64,000 nucleotides of DNA from a virus. The DNA lies in IMG/VR virus record IMGVR_UViG_3300049216_000035, positions 10,542 to 74,541 of that record, one strand, 5' to 3'. The notes beneath the pieces were generated by a model, which ran no database searches, was not told the DNA's origin, and was given only the letters and a program-made list of their open reading frames with translations. Below, piece by piece: positions 17,385 to 64,000 of this stretch. Each line of letters starts with the position of its first letter. Position 1 is the first letter of the stretch. The position numbers were made by a program, and so were the translations under genes.

Positions 17385-17628
17385 ATGGCTACATTCGTAA
17401 TCCAGGTCCTGGAGCCCGGCAAGAAGAACCGCAAGATGTATGCGGGCGGGGGGTCAATTAACGACCAAGTGGATTCACGCCAAGCAATATCGCGTGACCG
17501 ACCCGCAATCGCAGTTTGAGGTCGATTCCCTCGTCTCGTGGATGAACGATCACAATCCTGACTTCGAGTTTCGAACCAAAGACATCACCGGAACCGGGCA
17601 CGATATGTACCGCAACGAAGCGGCCTAG
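17385..17628 (+). pseudogene. Small gene frameshifted at a G6 tract (or a sequencing indel)
   Basis: MATFVIQVLEPGKKNRKMYAGG joins GQLTTKWIHAKQY...NEAA if one G is removed at 17448-17453; promoter-like motif upstream. Confidence 0.55.
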
Positions 17629-18395
17629 ATCGTCGGGTCGGGAGCGACTGCTTTACGCGGTCGCTTTGCCACTTTCTTTGGCTCAGGACGCACGGGAGAC
17701 TTGCCCAGGGTAGGAATACTCGTAATCTCGTCTACGAAGCCCTCAGCGAGAGCTTCTTCGGCTGAGACGTAGAAGTCTTTGCCGTCCACGAGCTTTTGAT
17801 AATACGAGATGGGGCGACCCGTTCGCGCCGACAGAACCTCGTAAATCTGCTTCTCCAGCTTCTTGGAGAACAACGCATCGCGGAGATGGTTGCTCGTCGC
17901 ATCCGCCGACTTACCGTACTGCGATTCGTGCATCATCATGCCGCCCTGCGGATCGATGGATCGGTGATCGCAGAACTGCACGATGTCGAAGGCGGCCGAC
18001 AGGGCAAACCCCGTGACGTGCGCGTTCACGACGCGGCCTTCTCGCCGCATCCGCGAGATAGCACCGATGACCGCGAGGCCGAGCCCAACGTCGCCGCCGA
18101 CCGACGAGATTTCAAGAGTAATGGGCTTGTCAGGCGGGAGTACGAGGTGAACCCGCTCTAACCGCGCCAGCAGTGAGGAGCCCATCGTTTGGCCGTCGTT
18201 GCTCGGGTCTTCTTCGTCCAGCATACCGACGAACGCGACGATGCCCTTGTCTTCGTTCGAGGGAGTAAACGCTTCTTCTGGTAGAAGCGCCACGAGCTTC
18301 GCCGCGAGCGAACGATCTATGTCGGCGCTCTCAGCCGTCATCGTCTGGATGAACAGGTCGATCAGCTTGGCGCGGGTCGAGAGTTCCTCAGCCAT
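17625..18395 (-). CDS. clpP: ClpP-family serine protease
   Basis: ISSVGGDV, catalytic Ser in GFALSAA, His in MMMHES, 'DFYVSAEEALAEGFVDEI'. Confidence 0.88.
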   Translation of the reverse strand: MAEELSTRAKLIDLFIQTMTAESADIDRSLAAKLVALLPEEAFTPSNEDKGIVAFVGMLDEEDPSNDGQTMGSSLLARLERVHLVLPPDKPITLEISSVGGDVGLGLAVIGAISRMRREGRVVNAHVTGFALSAAFDIVQFCDHRSIDPQGGMMMHESQYGKSADATSNHLRDALFSKKLEKQIYEVLSARTGRPISYYQKLVDGKDFYVSAEEALAEGFVDEITSIPTLGKSPVRPEPKKVAKRPRKAVAPDPTI

Positions 18396-18396
18396 T

Positions 18397-18945
18397 TTAT
18401 GCCGCCATCTCCGTTCTGTCAAAAAGGCTGAACTGCGTTCCGACCGCAATCGTGTGCCGCTTTGCGGAATTACAGCTTATGCACAAGCCTTGAATGTTGT
18501 GGATGAAATTATTGCCTCCGCGCGCAAGCGGAATTATGTGATCGCGTTGTAGCTTTGCTTTCACGCCGCACCGGGCGCAACAGCCATTCTGTGTTGCGAT
18601 GACGGCCTGCCATTCTTGCAACGAATGTGAACCAAAAGCGCCAAGTCGCGCAGCCCGGCGACGCGCACAAATCGCCCGCCATTCATCCGGGTGCGATCTG
18701 ATCCAGGCTTGGTTTCGGGCACGTTCTTTATCGCGATTAGTGGCGTATTCGGCTTTTCGTTTTATCTGATACCTTGACTTATGCTTACGATAGTGTCGGG
18801 CACACTTCGCGCGTGATTGTTCACGAAACGTATCAGTCTTACTGTAGATCGTTCTGCGTCTATGACTATCGCAAGTTTTGCAAAACGCTTCTCCCGCGAG
18901 TTTTATGTGCCCGCATTTTCGTGGATGACCTACGGGTATCATCAC
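18397..18945 (-). CDS. HNH homing endonuclease
   Basis: CARCG...RDHIIPLARGGNNFIHNIQGLCISCN; related to 1906-2388. Confidence 0.87.
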   Translation of the reverse strand: MMIPVGHPRKCGHIKLAGEAFCKTCDSHRRRTIYSKTDTFREQSRAKCARHYRKHKSRYQIKRKAEYATNRDKERARNQAWIRSHPDEWRAICARRRAARLGAFGSHSLQEWQAVIATQNGCCARCGVKAKLQRDHIIPLARGGNNFIHNIQGLCISCNSAKRHTIAVGTQFSLFDRTEMAA

Positions 18946-49846: not shown

Positions 49847-50002
49847 CTTATCTAGCCTTATTTGCTCTTAGGGTTGCCCAAACCGTAGCCCGTGAGGATC
49901 GAACCACGTTTCGTGCGTGAATTGGGGGTGCGCTATGTTGTGGAAGGTATCTAATCTAACACAAGATAAGGGCTAATAAGGCCCGGTAATGTTCAGCACT
50001 GT

Positions 50003-50069
50003 GTCTTCAAAACCGTAGAGGAGGGTCTCAAAAACCCTTTGGTGAGTTCGATTCTCACACTCTCCCGCC
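50003..50069 (+). tRNA. selC: 3' half of tRNA-Sec (anticodon TCA), probable attP core
   Basis: gtCTTCAAAacc anticodon loop, long variable arm, T arm GTGAG-TTCGATT-CTCAC, acceptor 3' strand ACTCTCCC-GCC; no matching 5' half. Confidence 0.75.
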
Positions 50070-56548: not shown

Positions 56549-57667
56549 TCACTTGGACATCCGTTGTGCGAACTTCTCGGCCGCGTCGGCCTGCTGAAGT
56601 ATCGTAACGTGAGAGTAGAGATTCGCCGTCATCGTGATCGTGCTGTGCCCGAGACGATCCTTGATCGCGTTCAGGCTCACCCCCGCCTCGGCGAGCAGCG
56701 TCGCATGCGTATGGCGTAGATCGTGGAAGCGGATCGACGGCAGACCCGCACGTTTGAGAATTGCTTTGAACGCCTGGAACATCGAGTCGGGGTTGTAGAG
56801 GTCGCCTATCTCGTTCGCGAAGATGAAGTCTTTGTCGCGATAGTGAGGCCCCGCCTTGAGACGATCCGCGTTCTGTTTGGCTTTGCGTTCCTTGAGGGCC
56901 GCGATGACCACGCCGTCCACGATCACCGTGCGCCGGGACGTTTCGTTCTTCGGGGCCTTGACGACGTAGGCGGGCTTCTTGCCCTTTTCGTTCGGTTCGA
57001 GCGACTGGTTCACCGTGATCGCGTGGTCTTTGATGTCGGACCAACGCAGCGCCATGATTTCGCTGCGCCGAAAGCCTCCATATACAGCGAGGAGGATCGC
57101 GCTGTACCACGGGGACGACTTCGCCTCGGCCAGCAGCCGATGAATCTCCTCGGGGGTGAGTGTGACCAGTTGCTTGCGCGGGATGCGCGGGGGCTTGACC
57201 GATTCCGCGACGTTGCGGACCAAGAGCGGGGGTTCGTGCCGAATCGCGTCCTGGAGTGCTTTGTAGAGGACGCGGTGACGGTGGAGGATCGATTGGGGTG
57301 CCAGCGTCTCGCCCCACTTCGCGTATGCCGTCCGTAGATCGGTAGACGATAGCTGCGAGAGCCGCTTCTGGCCGAACGCCGGGATCAGATAGTCGTTGAC
57401 GATGGCCTCGTAGCCTGTGAAGGTGCGTCGTGCGACGGAGCCCTTGATACCTTCGAGCCATTTCGGTAGGTACTCGGAGAGACGTGGCCCCGCCGGATCG
57501 ACGTACACCTGACGGTCGATGTCGGCTTGAAGCTGCGCGAGCTTACGTTTTGCTTGCGCTTCCGTTCCGATGAACGTGGAGGTCCGGCGCTTCTGGCGGA
57601 CGCCATCAATACGTCGGGGTTCGACCGTAAGTTGCCACTTGTTGGGACCTTTGGCGACGAGTCTCAT
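56549..57667 (-). CDS. int: Tyrosine integrase
   Basis: R (GFRRSE), K (PKN), HDLRH, RLGH, LYSH. Confidence 0.96.
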   Translation of the reverse strand: MRLVAKGPNKWQLTVEPRRIDGVRQKRRTSTFIGTEAQAKRKLAQLQADIDRQVYVDPAGPRLSEYLPKWLEGIKGSVARRTFTGYEAIVNDYLIPAFGQKRLSQLSSTDLRTAYAKWGETLAPQSILHRHRVLYKALQDAIRHEPPLLVRNVAESVKPPRIPRKQLVTLTPEEIHRLLAEAKSSPWYSAILLAVYGGFRRSEIMALRWSDIKDHAITVNQSLEPNEKGKKPAYVVKAPKNETSRRTVIVDGVVIAALKERKAKQNADRLKAGPHYRDKDFIFANEIGDLYNPDSMFQAFKAILKRAGLPSIRFHDLRHTHATLLAEAGVSLNAIKDRLGHSTITMTANLYSHVTILQQADAAEKFAQRMSK

Positions 57668-57670
57668 AGT

Positions 57671-57901
57671 CTAGCCTTCAAGTCTAGGTTGGGTGTAGGA
57701 GTCAACATGCGCTTTGAGTACGTCGCGCGAAACGAGAATCTTCCTACCCACGCGGATCGAAGGGACAGTGTGATCTACGGAAATGAGTTTGTACGCTGTA
57801 GATACACCGACTCGAAGCAAGACTGCCGCCTCGGATGGCGTTAGCAGGTCGGGGGCCGTCTCCCAGGACAAGCCCCCGATCTTCGCTAGTTTCGCATCCA
57901 C
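57671..57901 (-). CDS. xis: Excisionase-like HTH protein
   Basis: LLTPSEAAVLLRVGVSTAYKLI..PSIRVGRKILV; immediately upstream of int. Confidence 0.8.
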   Translation of the reverse strand: MDAKLAKIGGLSWETAPDLLTPSEAAVLLRVGVSTAYKLISVDHTVPSIRVGRKILVSRDVLKAHVDSYTQPRLEG

Positions 57902-60758: not shown

Positions 60759-61019
60759 ATGACCTCAACCCTACTCGCGTCCTTACTTACTGTGGCGATC
60801 ATCTTCGCCGTGCTCTACATCTGCGAGCGAGCGCGCCGCGTCGATCTACGACGCCGACTCGACTGCATCATCCGCATGGATGACGAAGCGTTCGCTCGAC
60901 GCGACGCTACGATCAAGCAACTTCAAAACGATCTTCGGGAAGCCCGTAGTATCAAATCTTCTGCGCCTGCGCGTGATCGCCACCCAGCAACGACGCATGC
61001 CGGATCGGGGAACTACTAA
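60759..61019 (+). CDS. N-terminal TM plus coiled-coil protein
   Basis: AAGGCTAGA upstream; TM helix. Confidence 0.55.
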   Translation: MTSTLLASLLTVAIIFAVLYICERARRVDLRRRLDCIIRMDDEAFARRDATIKQLQNDLREARSIKSSAPARDRHPATTHAGSGNY

Positions 61020-61020
61020 C

Positions 61021-61752
61021 ATGACTACCTACGACGCGGAGCGTATCGCCTACACCACGCACGGTGCCTGCGGGCAAACTCGCGCGAACGGCACGACTCC
61101 CTACATCACTCACCCGCGCAAGATCGCGCTCTATACTCAAGAGTTCAGCGAGTATGGCGACCTTAAAGCCTTCGACGGCCCCGACCGGAACGACCGGATC
61201 GTCGCTGCCTTCTTGCACGACGTACTCGAAGACACGAAGCTGACCCGCTCGGACCTCCTGTTCCTCGGGATCAGCTACAAGCAGTTGGACATCGTGGAAC
61301 GGCTTACGAAGCCGGATGCTGGGCCAGCCCCGCGCTCGTACTATCAGAGGATCGCCGAGAACGACGACGCCTTGGTTGTGAAGTGTGCAGATCGCTGCGC
61401 GAACCTGGACGACGCCCTCGCTGAACTTGAAGTAGAGGAGCCGACCGAACCCCGACGTTGGGGGCGCTACGTCGAAAAAACGTACCGGGATGTACTCCCA
61501 ATGTACAAGACGCTGCCGTATCTGCGCCAGCAGTTGGTGACGAGGCTCGAAGCAATCGAAGCTGCGTTGCCCGCCTCACTGGGACGCCGCGCCGCTGTGG
61601 TTGCTCGCGAGCGTGATCCGTGGAAGTTCTACTTCGAGCGGACTGCTGGTGCGAACTCGCACTCGGCCGAGATAGCGGACCTAGACGCTGGCGAAGCCTT
61701 CGCGGACCCCGCGTGGGCGGTGCCGGGAATCAACGCCAGCAGCATCGATTGA
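61021..61752 (+). CDS. HD-domain (p)ppGpp hydrolase-like protein (small alarmone hydrolase/Mesh1 type)
   Basis: H..QTR...PYITHP, AFLHDVLEDT, VKCADRCANL. Confidence 0.82.
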   Translation: MTTYDAERIAYTTHGACGQTRANGTTPYITHPRKIALYTQEFSEYGDLKAFDGPDRNDRIVAAFLHDVLEDTKLTRSDLLFLGISYKQLDIVERLTKPDAGPAPRSYYQRIAENDDALVVKCADRCANLDDALAELEVEEPTEPRRWGRYVEKTYRDVLPMYKTLPYLRQQLVTRLEAIEAALPASLGRRAAVVARERDPWKFYFERTAGANSHSAEIADLDAGEAFADPAWAVPGINASSID

Positions 61753-61769
61753 CGCCTCACTAAGGCGAA

Positions 61770-61815
61770 CAGAAAGAAGACCGGGTAGCTACTCCCGGTC
61801 TTCTTTTCTTTTCTT
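61770..61815. terminator. Bidirectional intrinsic terminator
   Basis: agaaagaagaccgggtagctactcccggtcttcttttctttt. Confidence 0.85.
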
Positions 61816-61908
61816 GCGGGGCAGACCACTTATTACACGCCGCCTGCCCCAAGCGTGTTATCCCCGGCCAGCGTACCGTCACCGGGAAATCGAGTGCCTG
61901 TCAAGCGC

Positions 61909-62622
61909 CTACAAGTCTACCACGATTGGCGTGTTGAGCGGGACGTATTCGCGCGTCATTATGGCAGCGTTGACGAACGTCAGCTATCGGCTGGCTCGTC
62001 TGCGTTCCCCCCAGTCTTCGCGCCCGTAGGACTCGTGCAAGTGACCGAAGACGTGCAGCCGTAGATGATCCAGTGCTTCGATTCGTTTCCAGAGTTCTGG
62101 ACAGCCCGCGCGAGTGTCCTCGCCACCATACGTCAGATCGAGGATGCCTCGCGGCGGACTATGCGTCACGAGTATCTGGGTGTCGTCGGGTATCTTCGCC
62201 CACGTCGCCTTCGCCGTCTCGTGCCCCGGATCGTGACGCGGGAAGTTGAACGCCCAATCGTAGAACCAAGGTTGCCAGGGTGAACCGTAGACTTTGAAGC
62301 CTTCGATAGTCGCCGACTGATCGATCAGCGGCGTGATCGTCGGGAACCGCGACATGAGGTCATCGACCGAGACGCCTTGCGGAAGAAGCCAACCTCGGAA
62401 CGAGGCCGGGCGGTTCGGATCGAACAGCCAGTCGTGGTTGCCGGGCACGACCACCTTGTGCTTGTGCGGGAGCGAATCGATCCACGCAAGTTCGCGTTCG
62501 ACTTCACCCTGCGTACCGCGATAGGTCAGATCGCCCGCGTGGATCAGCAGGTCGCCGTCCGGGACTTCGATCTTACCTTCACTGCCAGCGCAGTGCGTGT
62601 CCGACAAACAGACGACTCGCAA
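61909..62622 (-). CDS. Metallophosphoesterase (MPPED2-like) with in-frame TAG at 61986-61984 before its conserved C-terminus
   Basis: LSDTH, HAGDLT, PGNHD, THSPP, GHLHE; after the TAG the same frame reads LTFVNAAIMTREYVPLNTPIVVDL*. Confidence 0.85.
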
Positions 62623-62644
62623 TATACTCTAATCTTCTAAGCGT

Positions 62645-62780
62645 GGGGGTTCGTAGTTAGAGAGAGAGCCGGGCTTTCACCCGACTCTCCGGTTGTGCGG
62701 CGCTTAGGCCGCGAGAGGCAGAGCCTCGTACTCGTTGCCAGTTGAATCTGGCGCGTACACTGCGCCAACTACTACGCCCA
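62645..62780 (-). ncRNA. Candidate tmRNA-like RNA lacking the tRNA-like domain (tag GNEYEALPLAA*)
   Basis: TATACT at 62789-62784; hairpin; UUCAACU|GGC resume-like context; 11-codon tag at 62739-62704; stop codon in a hairpin loop; 5'/3' pairing. Confidence 0.55.
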
Positions 62781-63051
62781 TCTAGTATACGACATCTGGG
62801 TCGGAACTCCTGCTAACCAGACTACTGCAAAGTATCCCGCCAAGGGATACTACCGCAACCTAGACTTGAAACGCAGTGTTATGAAGAGTGAGGAGACAAA
62901 GATGCCCACCACCGCCCTTCGATTCCAGTGCCGCTCGACCAACCCGGTCAACGGAGCCAAGTGCCTCCGACCCGCAGGCCACGAGGGTAAGTGCGCGGGA
63001 TGCCTCTGCTCCTGGTACAACACCACCCCACTGAAAGGCTAGATACTACTT

Positions 63052-63264
63052 ATGACCATCCGAACCTTCTACTGTGCCGATTGCGGCCAGCCGTTCCAGA
63101 CCACCCGCGACTCCCAATCCCGCTGCAACCCCTGCCGTGTTGAAGCTGGCGACAAGCCCCTCTACGACGACGAAGACCCGACCCCGACCGACCTCGCCCG
63201 GATCGACAACGACATCCGCAACCTCTCGTGCGACCCCGCCGACGAGTGCGTACACTGTCAGTAG
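63052..63264 (+). CDS. Small Cys-rich (zinc-ribbon) protein
   Basis: CADC, CNPC, CVHC; AAGGCTAGA upstream. Confidence 0.6.
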   Translation: MTIRTFYCADCGQPFQTTRDSQSRCNPCRVEAGDKPLYDDEDPTPTDLARIDNDIRNLSCDPADECVHCQ

Positions 63265-64000
63265 ATTAGACCACATCCTAAAATCCGCCACCACCAGTTG
63301 GTGAGCAGCGCGACCCGGCCCCCGTACCGCCCCGGAAAAAGCTCGCTGCCCGGTTGCCTGGACTCTCCGGGCGACGGTCTGGGCAACGCGATCAGCATGG
63401 TCGTACAGAACACTCCTAGAACAGACTCCACCCGTCCGGTCTACGAAACCGAGGAGGCTGGCTGCGCTGTGCGCCACGCCGCTTGACTTGGCTGGGCCTC
63501 GGGCTTATCGGTGAGTATGAGTTGTTGTCATATGTGTGCGATCATCATATGCATATACAATATGAATGATGTGTATGTCGCTATACGACCTATAGTGGTT
63601 ACTGGGGTCTAATGTGTACTAGTTCGGCTCGATCCCCCGGCCGTGACGATTTTTGTAGCTGAGCCATAGCCATAGTGCTGTTTAGCGCGACTTCATCTAA
63701 TGGCCTACTTTTGACGCCTGCATACAAGTGTTTGACCTCGACGCATTACATCGCACCCATTAGCTCATATTATCTACGACAAAAGCGGAGGAAGGTGTCA
63801 AATAATAAGTGGTAAAATGCAACGACTGAGGGAGCTATGAGGACCAGTTCGAGTGGGTTGCAAACTGCTTGAACTGGATGCGAACCAGTCATCGCGAGCA
63901 GTATGATGTGACGATATATGCAGGTTTGTTCTAGCCTTCCTGTATGTATCGTTCACATCATACTGTCGTTAGATCAAACCCCCGCCGAGATGCGTTTTTC

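What the first reader, a model, noticed from the sequence alone, without database searches (positions are those of the whole stretch)
62645..62790. tmRNA mRNA-like domain without a tRNA-like domain: mini-tmRNA or SsrA-tag decoy
Seen on the minus strand of an intergenic gap: -10 TATACT (62789-62784); GGGCGUAGUAGUUGG; hairpin UGGCGC/GCGCCA; then UUCAACU|GGC AAC GAG UAC GAG GCU CUG CCU CUC GCG GCC UAA = GNEYEALPLAA*. The stop sits in the loop of GCGGC-CUAAGC-GCCGC. A GAAA-containing hairpin follows (62689-62664), then a 3' CUAACUACG that pairs with the 5' end. Established: tmRNA tags start with a G-initial resume codon preceded by a conserved A at -4, end in LAA (the ClpX degron), have the stop in helix H5, and sit between pk1 and the closing P2 helix; analogues of all these are present. 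Absent: the GGGG..UUCGAC 5' end, the T-arm and a G3:U acceptor/CCA. Inference: either a truncated tmRNA that titrates or retargets trans-translation factors or works with a TLD in trans, or a 25-aa peptide (ATG 62781, MGVVVGAVYAPDSTGNEYEALPLAA) acting as a ClpXP decoy. That ATG lies only 2 nt after the -10 box, which favours the RNA model. The phage also encodes a non-capsid ClpP.
Basis: partly seen in the sequence, partly recalled or inferred. Interest (0 to 1): 0.9.

Follow-up and report, generated by a model that had tools for sequence, protein, structure and literature searches.

The report
Conserved structured phage leader RNA
The stretch is a real, conserved, hairpin-rich RNA element just upstream of a phosphoesterase gene in an uncultured moss-associated temperate phage, but no test ties it to the ribosome-rescue RNA (tmRNA), and its "LAA" ending is what chance gives.

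Summary
The minus strand folds far better than shuffles (z -4.4). Four phage lineages from moss metagenomes keep the promoter-to-hairpin block almost unchanged, while flanking genes differ by 9-19 %. All differences fall in loops, a hairpin tip or the 5' end.

The tmRNA reading is not supported:
- ARAGORN and all Rfam tmRNA and tRNA models give nothing, even at E<=10.
- The complete 74.5-kb genome has no tRNA-like alanine acceptor and no SmpB.
- No genome or viral contig encodes the tag.
- "LAA-stop" occurs 4 times in this window by chance-level counting.

The 25-aa peptide is also disfavoured:
- A 1-nt insertion breaks the ATG frame in one lineage.
- No ribosome-binding site is present.
- 0 of 12 fourfold sites vary, against 31-35 % in neighbouring genes, so the constraint is on nucleotides.

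Best reading: a non-coding structured 5' leader, possibly also a short stable RNA, of a phosphoesterase "moron" transcript. In relatives the element is followed by a tRNA-like module (variable-arm hairpin, T-arm, acceptor strand) that is not a tmRNA tRNA-like domain. No transcript data exist, and function is inferred.

The parts
62790..62823 (-). Conserved block upstream of the -10-like box; presumed promoter or regulator-binding region with no recognisable -35
   Evidence: Only single substitutions among four lineages (62800 in L079, 62802 in X10). No sigma-70 site was called by the scanner, so its promoter status is inferred.
62784..62789 (-). -10-like hexamer TATACT; implied transcript start near 62777
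   Evidence: Read from the sequence; invariant in L078/L079. Not called by the consensus scan because a -35 is lacking. Inferred.
62762..62777 (-). H0, a small 5' hairpin (GCGU / RCGC with an 8-nt loop)
Evidence: RNAalifold consensus.
62737..62752 (-). H1 hairpin GCCAG-AUUCAA-CUGGC; it contains the supposed resume codon GGC
   Evidence: In the MFE of all four variants; invariant.
62704..62739 (-). Tag-like frame GGC..UAA (GNEYEALPLAA*); open upstream to GTG 62760 in all lineages and to ATG 62781 in three of four
   Evidence: The 57 nt from the GTG to the stop are identical in window and L079; 0 of 12 fourfold sites changed. The stop is TAA, or TAG in X10.
62715..62727 (-). H2 hairpin GAGGC-UCU-GCCUC
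   Evidence: invariant.
62697..62712 (-). H3 hairpin GCGGC-CUAAGC-GCCGC with the stop codon in its loop
   Evidence: Stem invariant; three of the six loop positions (62702-62704) vary among lineages.
62663..62690 (-). H4, a 12-bp GAAA-capped hairpin (-21.4 kcal/mol); terminator-like but without a U-tract
   Evidence: In L078/L079 the tip is replaced by a roughly 20-nt extension with the stem kept (GGGU/GCCC becomes GGGUGA/UCACCC). Not called as a terminator. It contains three G.U pairs that exist only on the minus-strand RNA.
62652..62660 (-). CUAACUACG, which pairs with GUAGUUGG near the 5' end in this phage only
   Evidence: The partner segment is absent from L078/L079 and X10, where other sequence follows H4.
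61909..62622 (-). Downstream gene: calcineurin-like metallophosphoesterase, start TTG 62622, interrupted by an in-frame TAG at 61986-61984
   Evidence: Pfam PF00149, E = 2.8e-16. The N-terminus aligns with relatives. The in-frame stop is followed by a conserved 24-aa tail.

Best explanation
A non-coding, structured RNA module of about 115-135 nt, transcribed leftward from a promoter whose -10 is TATACT. It forms the 5' leader of the short phosphoesterase transcription unit of a temperate phage. The RNA folds into five local hairpins (H0-H4) and ends in a very stable GNRA-capped hairpin 38 nt before the start codon. Most likely it acts in cis: H4 pauses, partly terminates or protects the transcript, which sets how much RNA reaches the phosphoesterase gene, and the 5' fragment may also accumulate as a small stable RNA. 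The tag-like reading frame is a by-product of the GC-rich hairpin sequence and not a trans-translation template. Shown: the structure signal, strand bias, nucleotide-level conservation, position relative to the gene, and the absence of tmRNA features. Inferred: the transcript start, the role of H4 and the regulatory mechanism.
For: 1. Fold z = -4.39 on the minus strand against -2.05 on the plus strand. The G.U pairs and the GNRA loop exist only on the minus strand.
2. Four lineages (window = X3 = X5; X7; X10; L078/L079) keep H1-H4 in their MFE. All 5-6 independent changes lie in the H3 loop, the H4 tip, the 5' end or upstream of the -10.
3. Between window and L079, flanking genes are 79-85 % identical in nucleotides and differ at 31-35 % of fourfold sites. 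The 57-nt frame has 0 of 12 fourfold changes (P about 0.006-0.011), so selection acts on nucleotides.
4. No promoter is called between H4 and the gene in any form, and in the window the gap is only 38 nt. The phosphoesterase must therefore be transcribed through the element.
5. The unit ends at a canonical bidirectional terminator at 61772-61807, which has the U-rich tail that H4 lacks.
6. What follows H4 differs among lineages (38 nt, 226 extra letters, or about 340 nt), while promoter-to-H4 stays constant, so this block is a self-contained module.
7. No Rfam family matches.
Against: There is no transcript evidence of any kind. The promoter has no -35 and was not called by the scanner. H4 lacks a U-tract, so termination is conjecture. 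No alternative (antiterminator) pairing of convincing strength was found in nascent-transcript folds. There is zero covariation, because the stems never vary in the four close lineages. High identity could partly reflect recent exchange of the module between phages. The frame stays open, and its stop is kept (TAA or TAG) in all lineages, so translation is not excluded.
Confidence: 0.5

Rival explanations
1. A stand-alone trans-acting small RNA: promoter, about 117 nt, with its 3' end at H4. It would regulate host or phage mRNAs by base-pairing or by protein binding, as a prophage moron sRNA.
For: The promoter-to-H4 block is a constant module while downstream content varies among lineages. H4 is a very stable 3' hairpin. 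Single-stranded loops (AGUAGUUG, AUUCAA) are invariant. The phage is probably temperate, with an integrase, and such phages often carry sRNA morons (own knowledge).
Against: There is no U-tract after H4 and no terminator call, whereas this phage's real terminator has one. The downstream gene has no promoter of its own. No target or seed was identified. No transcript data exist.
Confidence: 0.2
2. A small protein of 18-25 aa (…VYAPDSTGNEYEALPLAA) with an ssrA-like C-terminal degron. It would be made by ordinary translation and would compete for ClpXP or another protease.
For: The frame from GTG 62760 is open in all four lineages, and the stop is kept as TAA or TAG. A C-terminal LAA is the core ClpX signal (established knowledge). 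The phage has a ClpP-family gene.
Against: The ATG frame is broken by a +1 insertion in two independent assemblies, L078 and L079. The ATG lies 2 nt after the -10-like box. No Shine-Dalgarno sequence and none of this phage's GAAAGGCTAGA-type initiation motif lies before the ATG or the GTG. 0 of 12 fourfold sites vary, against 31-35 % in neighbouring genes. About 80 % of the frame is base-paired. LAA-stop is at chance level.
Confidence: 0.08
3. A tmRNA-derived mRNA-like domain without its tRNA-like domain. It would be a decoy for trans-translation factors, or a tag template that works with a tRNA-like piece supplied in trans.
For: A G-initial first codon, an LAA end and a stop in a hairpin loop are present and conserved. 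In L078/L079 a module with a canonical T-arm and an acceptor-like stem lies about 150 nt downstream in the same orientation. Unchecked earlier scan notes describe split phage tmRNAs. A TLD-only phage tmRNA is known in DS6A (PMC4131195).
Against: No tmRNA model matches either the short or the long form at E<=10, and ARAGORN is negative. The relatives' T-arm module has C1-G72, A3-U70 and G4.U69, no G3:U70, no ACCA and no D-loop analogue. It is closed by a strand immediately upstream, not by the 5' end of the element, and it looks like the 3' part of a class-II tRNA. The window's complete genome has no alanine-type acceptor and no SmpB. The tag occurs in no representative bacterial genome. The frame is mostly base-paired and there is no pseudoknot. 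A template without a tRNA-like domain has no known route into the ribosome (established knowledge).
Confidence: 0.05
4. A DNA-level element, such as an operator cluster of the divergent promoter region or a recombination or attachment-site-related sequence, whose hairpin potential is incidental.
For: It lies in a divergent control region 1.3 kb from the contig end. The segment just downstream of H4 is an indel hot-spot flanked by CTCTCT repeats. In relatives a tRNA-3'-like module of the kind found in attP sites sits next to it.
Against: Strand-asymmetric fold significance, and G.U pairs that would be A.C mismatches on the other strand or in a DNA cruciform. Changes cluster in hairpin loops and tips rather than being spread over the block.
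Confidence: 0.07

Closest known systems
tmRNA / SsrA (Rfam RF00023; two-piece RF01849-RF01851)
   Same: A short frame with a G-initial first codon, ending in LAA, with its stop in a hairpin loop, flanked by structured RNA. Phages are known to carry tmRNAs (PMC4131195).
   Different: No tRNA-like domain, no pseudoknots and no model match at any threshold. The frame is about 80 % base-paired. The tag is unknown in any genome searched. There is no SmpB. It is not a member.
Mycobacteriophage DS6A 'TLD-only' tmRNA (PMC4131195)
   Same: A partial tmRNA carried by a phage and proposed to interfere with trans-translation.
   Different: DS6A keeps the recognisable tRNA-like domain and was found by tmRNA search tools. 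Here nothing recognisable as tmRNA remains, and no MLD-only form is listed in that survey.
Promoter-proximal short phage transcripts that end at a hairpin before downstream genes (lambda PR'-tR' 6S RNA, Stx-phage StxS; own knowledge, not checked here)
   Same: A promoter, a structured RNA of 100-200 nt, a strong hairpin and then cargo genes. The short RNA may itself be functional.
   Different: Those end at canonical U-tract terminators and depend on a Q antiterminator. Here there is no U-tract, no known antiterminator and no sequence similarity.
Leader-peptide transcription attenuators (trpL type; own knowledge)
   Same: A short ORF inside a hairpin-rich leader, with its stop about 15 nt before a terminator-like hairpin.
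   Different: No ribosome-binding site, no regulatory codon run, no convincing antiterminator alternative and no U-tract.
Class-II tRNA 3' portion / attP core (for the module that follows the element in L078/L079)
   Same: A variable-arm-like hairpin, a 5-7-bp arm with the perfect T-loop UUCGAGU, then a 7-nt acceptor strand, N and CC. The window's own genome has a comparable tRNA-Sec-like 3' fragment at 49985-50066 plus an integrase.
   Different: The L079 module is closed by an 11-nt complementary strand directly upstream. It has no D arm or anticodon arm, gives no tRNA model hit, and matches no representative genome exactly.

Membership tests
tmRNA (one-piece RF00023, two-piece RF01849/50/51) | tRNA-like domain: acceptor stem with G3:U70, T-arm, 3' (A)CCA | tested here: not met
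   ARAGORN finds none in the window, L160, L078 or L079. A custom T-arm scan of the whole 74.5-kb genome finds no T-arm followed by an alanine-type acceptor. The L079 module has A3-U70 and G4.U69 and no ACCA.
tmRNA (one-piece RF00023, two-piece RF01849/50/51) | Match to the covariance model | tested here: not met
   No tmRNA-family hit at E<=10 on 61500-64000 or on L079 100-460. No hit at gathering score in the window. No hit in the whole genome.
tmRNA (one-piece RF00023, two-piece RF01849/50/51) | Tag frame preceded by pseudoknot pk1 and followed by further pseudoknots inside a closing P2 helix | tested here: not met
   Only simple hairpins are predicted. The pk1-like hairpin is weakened by the G>A change in 3 of 4 lineages. 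The closing helix is absent from the long forms.
tmRNA (one-piece RF00023, two-piece RF01849/50/51) | Tag conserved as a peptide (synonymous change tolerated) and resembling the host tag | tested here: inconclusive
   The frame is identical at the nucleotide level in all lineages, so no synonymous test is possible. 0 of 12 fourfold changes points to RNA-level constraint. No genome encodes NEYEALPLAA*. The host is unknown.
tmRNA (one-piece RF00023, two-piece RF01849/50/51) | SmpB partner and delivery to stalled ribosomes | not testable with these tools
   No SmpB in the phage. Binding to host SmpB cannot be assessed.
Small protein with an ssrA-like degron | Conserved start codon with a ribosome-binding site | tested here: not met
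   The ATG frame is broken in L078/L079. No SD sequence or phage-type initiation motif lies before the ATG or the GTG.
Intrinsic terminator / attenuator leader | GC-rich hairpin followed by a U-tract | tested here: not met
   H4 is a 12-bp hairpin of -21.4 kcal/mol, but its tail is CUCUAACUACG and it is not called. The phage's own terminator at 61772-61807 is called.
Intrinsic terminator / attenuator leader | Located between a promoter and the regulated gene, on the same strand | tested here: met
   The element lies 38 nt upstream of the phosphoesterase start, on the same strand, with no intervening promoter call. The promoter itself is inferred.
Any curated RNA family (Rfam 15) | Score at or above a family's gathering threshold | tested here: not met
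   0 hits in the window at gathering score. Only chance-level miRNA or snoRNA hits at E<=10.

The most novel reading that the evidence does not exclude
The element is what remains of, or a deliberately reduced form of, a phage tmRNA: a separately promoted tag template (GNEYEALPLAA) that has lost covalent linkage to a tRNA-like domain. In relatives (L078/L079) it sits beside a non-canonical T-arm/acceptor module, and in this phage it stands alone. It would act as a decoy for trans-translation or ClpXP factors, or work with a tRNA-like partner in trans.
Probability: 0.05. Interest if true: 0.85.

Novelty: new member of a known kind. Interest (0 to 1): 0.3.

Why it matters
If the best reading holds, this is one more unclassified, conserved, structured leader or small RNA of a temperate phage. 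It is a candidate cis-regulator of a metallophosphoesterase "moron", a gene class that may degrade nucleotide signals. That makes it useful as a seed for a new RNA family, but not surprising. The case also shows that tmRNA-like tags (G-initial codon, LAA, stop in a hairpin loop) arise by chance in GC-rich hairpin sequence, so such calls need a tRNA-like domain or a model match. Only the low-probability tmRNA-derived reading would change ideas, namely about whether a tag template can work without a linked tRNA-like domain.

Tried and rejected
- Close phage relatives in INPHARED: no match in near or distant mode.
- IMG/VR relatives via the phosphoesterase are all at or below 46 % identity and lack the element. 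Relatives via the capsid (70 %) are fragments without this region. Searches via the HD protein and the 70-aa Zn-ribbon ORF found none.
- Exact and degenerate DNA patterns in viral contigs gave 0 hits. In genome contigs they also gave 0 hits.
The P0002 contig was reached through the metagenome scan instead.
- Sequencing runs: no RNA holder is listed and all holders are moss-metagenome DNA contigs, so nothing can be said about expression. Parts of the stretch without cover in single runs are not interpreted.
- Covariance model R1 found only its own sources.
- Covariation counting gave zero informative pairs.
- The peptide (25 aa) is too short for the search for homologous proteins, so the 'C-terminus of a decayed longer gene' test could only be addressed from the sequence. 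The frame is bracketed by stops, and the indels between lineages are not multiples of three.
- Leader-peptide attenuation: nascent folds show only a marginal alternative to H3/H4.
- Genome-wide TAG recoding, as an explanation for the in-frame TAG, is not supported.
- Considered and rejected: that the T-arm module of L078/L079 is the 3' end of a host ssrA carried as attP. Its 3' strand (..UUCG-G-CC) cannot form G1-C72 / G2-C71 / G3.U70.
- Structure prediction, complex prediction and the protein atlas were not used, because no protein question was open.

Full report
**Setting.** The window is bases 10542-74541 of a 74.5-kb IMG/VR virus record that CheckV rates as complete. It encodes a DNA polymerase, helicases, a capsid and protease module and a UvsX-like recombinase, a ClpP-family protein at 17625-18449 and a tyrosine integrase at about 56549-57667. 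It holds no tRNA, tmRNA or SmpB. The finding lies 1.3 kb from the right end, in a divergent gap. To its left is a calcineurin-like metallophosphoesterase gene (61984-62622, minus strand; PF00149, E = 2.8e-16). To its right are small Cys-rich ORFs on the plus strand. The phosphoesterase N-terminus aligns residue for residue with relatives, so the element lies upstream of that gene and is not part of it.

**Observation.** The 151-nt minus strand folds at -65.9 kcal/mol with z = -4.39. The plus strand gives z = -2.05. An LAA-stop ending occurs 4 times in the six frames of this window, against 2.2 +/- 1.4 in dinucleotide shuffles. The most eye-catching feature is therefore at chance level.

**tmRNA tests.**
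- ARAGORN finds nothing.
- Rfam finds nothing tmRNA- or tRNA-like at E<=10 in 61500-64000, nothing at gathering score in the window, and nothing in the remaining 10.6 kb.
- The tag, back-translated at the protein level (NEYEALPLAA*), occurs in none of about 185,000 species genomes and in no IMG/VR contig.
- A survey of tmRNAs lists full-length phage tmRNAs and one TLD-only case (DS6A), but no MLD-only form (PMC4131195).

**Relatives.**
- The phosphoesterase has an 83 %-identical relative (P0002).
- Its contigs L078 and L079 come from two samples, are 98.9 % identical to each other, and are syntenic with the window.
- They carry the same element. Coding flanks are 79-85 % identical in nucleotides, the 198-nt element block is 93 % identical, and promoter-to-H4 differs at about 5 positions.
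- Laying moss-metagenome contigs on the region adds two lineages. X7 is a short form. X10 has 226 extra letters after H4.
- Across the four lineages, the changes inside the element are:
  - 62765 G>A;
  - three positions of the H3 loop (62702-62704), including TAA>TAG in X10;
  - a +1 A insertion in L078/L079;
  - a roughly 20-nt extension of the H4 tip in L078/L079, with the stem preserved.
- All four variants keep H1-H4 in their MFE.
- The 5'/3' closing helix exists only in the short forms.
- There is no covariation, because the stems never vary.

**RNA or peptide?**
- The +1 insertion breaks the ATG-to-tag frame in L078/L079. Only a GTG at 62760 stays in frame everywhere.
- Neither start has a Shine-Dalgarno sequence or the GAAAGGCTAGA-type initiation motif seen at real genes nearby.
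- Between window and L079, 31-35 % of fourfold sites differ in the phosphoesterase and HD genes. In the frame, 0 of 12 differ (P about 0.006-0.011).
- The constraint is therefore on nucleotides, which fits a structured RNA.

**Mechanism.**
- No promoter is called between H4 and the gene in any form. The unit ends at a canonical bidirectional terminator at 61772-61807.
- H4 (-21.4 kcal/mol, GAAA loop) lacks a U-tract and is not called as a terminator.
- The simplest model is one leftward transcript in which the element is the 5' leader. A cis role in pausing, partial termination or stability is inferred. A trans-acting sRNA is the main rival.
- Nascent-transcript folds give no convincing antiterminator.

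**The long form in relatives.**
- In L078/L079 the element is followed by about 190 nt that the window lacks, and then by a 48-aa Zn-ribbon ORF.
- The extra RNA ends in a three-way junction (L079 365-430): an 11-bp stem, a 6-bp hairpin and a 7-bp arm with a perfect T-loop.
However, it has C1-G72, A3-U70 and G4.U69, no ACCA and no D-loop analogue. It is closed by a strand directly upstream, gives no tRNA or tmRNA model hit, and matches no genome exactly.
- Its layout is that of the 3' part of a class-II tRNA. The window's own genome has a comparable tRNA-Sec-like 3' fragment at 49985-50066 (25.6 bits, below threshold). It looks attP-like, which is plausible given the integrase.
- I therefore put the tmRNA-derived reading at about 5 %.

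**Verdict.** This is a genuine, conserved, strand-specific structured RNA element with no Rfam family. It is most likely a non-coding leader or small RNA of a phosphoesterase moron. It is not a tmRNA by any defining feature tested. The evidence rests on four closely related lineages and no expression data.

Noticed in passing
window 61984-61986 (minus strand), within 61909-62622: The phosphoesterase gene carries a single in-frame TAG. The 24 codons after it (LTFVNAAIMTREYVPLNTPIVVDL) continue in the same frame and differ from L079 almost only at synonymous sites. This suggests a very recent nonsense mutation, a sequencing error or stop read-through. There is no sign of genome-wide TAG recoding.
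   Followed up: partly
window 49985-50066 (+): A tRNA-Sec-like stretch (RF01852, 25.6 bits, below the gathering score; UCA in the anticodon-like loop). Only the long variable arm, a perfect T-arm (GTGAG TTCGATT CTCAC) and the 3' acceptor strand are well formed. This is typical of an attP core carrying the 3' part of a host tRNA gene. ARAGORN does not call it.
   Followed up: partly
window about 56549-57667 (minus strand): A tyrosine integrase (PF00589, 91.9 bits), so this replication-gene-rich phage is probably temperate. The integrase lies about 5 kb from the element and about 6.5 kb from the tRNA-like fragment.
   Followed up: no
L079 260-445 (also in L078): Relatives carry an extra structured RNA segment after the element. 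It contains the hairpin CCGCCUGCC..GGGCGG and a three-way junction with a canonical T-loop and an 18-bp coaxial stem ending ..G-CC. The whole 332 nt fold with z = -5.7. It gives no Rfam hit and has no exact match in genomes. It may be a tRNA-like module or an attP-type fragment.
   Followed up: partly
L079 454-600 compared with window 62623-62660: Relatives have a 48-aa Zn-ribbon ORF (CxxC…CxxC) between the RNA and the phosphoesterase. In the window the ORF is gone, and its translation-initiation region is fused to the phosphoesterase start. X10 shows a third arrangement with 226 extra letters. The segment after H4 is an indel hot-spot flanked by CTCTCT repeats.
   Followed up: partly
window 60880-61752 (+): A 290-aa protein with an HD domain of the RelA/SpoT-hydrolase type (weak Pfam HD hit; HDxxED-like motif), convergent with the phosphoesterase. 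It may be an alarmone or nucleotide hydrolase. It is conserved at about 79 % nucleotide identity in L079.
   Followed up: no
window 63894-63969 and 63400-64000: The last 600 nt of the contig drop to 47-50 % GC, hold no convincing ORF, and contain a near-perfect hairpin of about 30 bp (a chance mir-4536 hit, 27 bits). This may be related to the genome end or to an origin.
   Followed up: no
window 59447, 60747, 63033 (+); 57677-57691, 60680, 62856-62870: Recurrent motifs GAAAGGCTAGAnATG and CAACCTAGACTTGAA lie just before start codons of small genes in this region. They appear to be a phage-specific translation-initiation or regulatory signature.
   Followed up: no
   Followed up: partly
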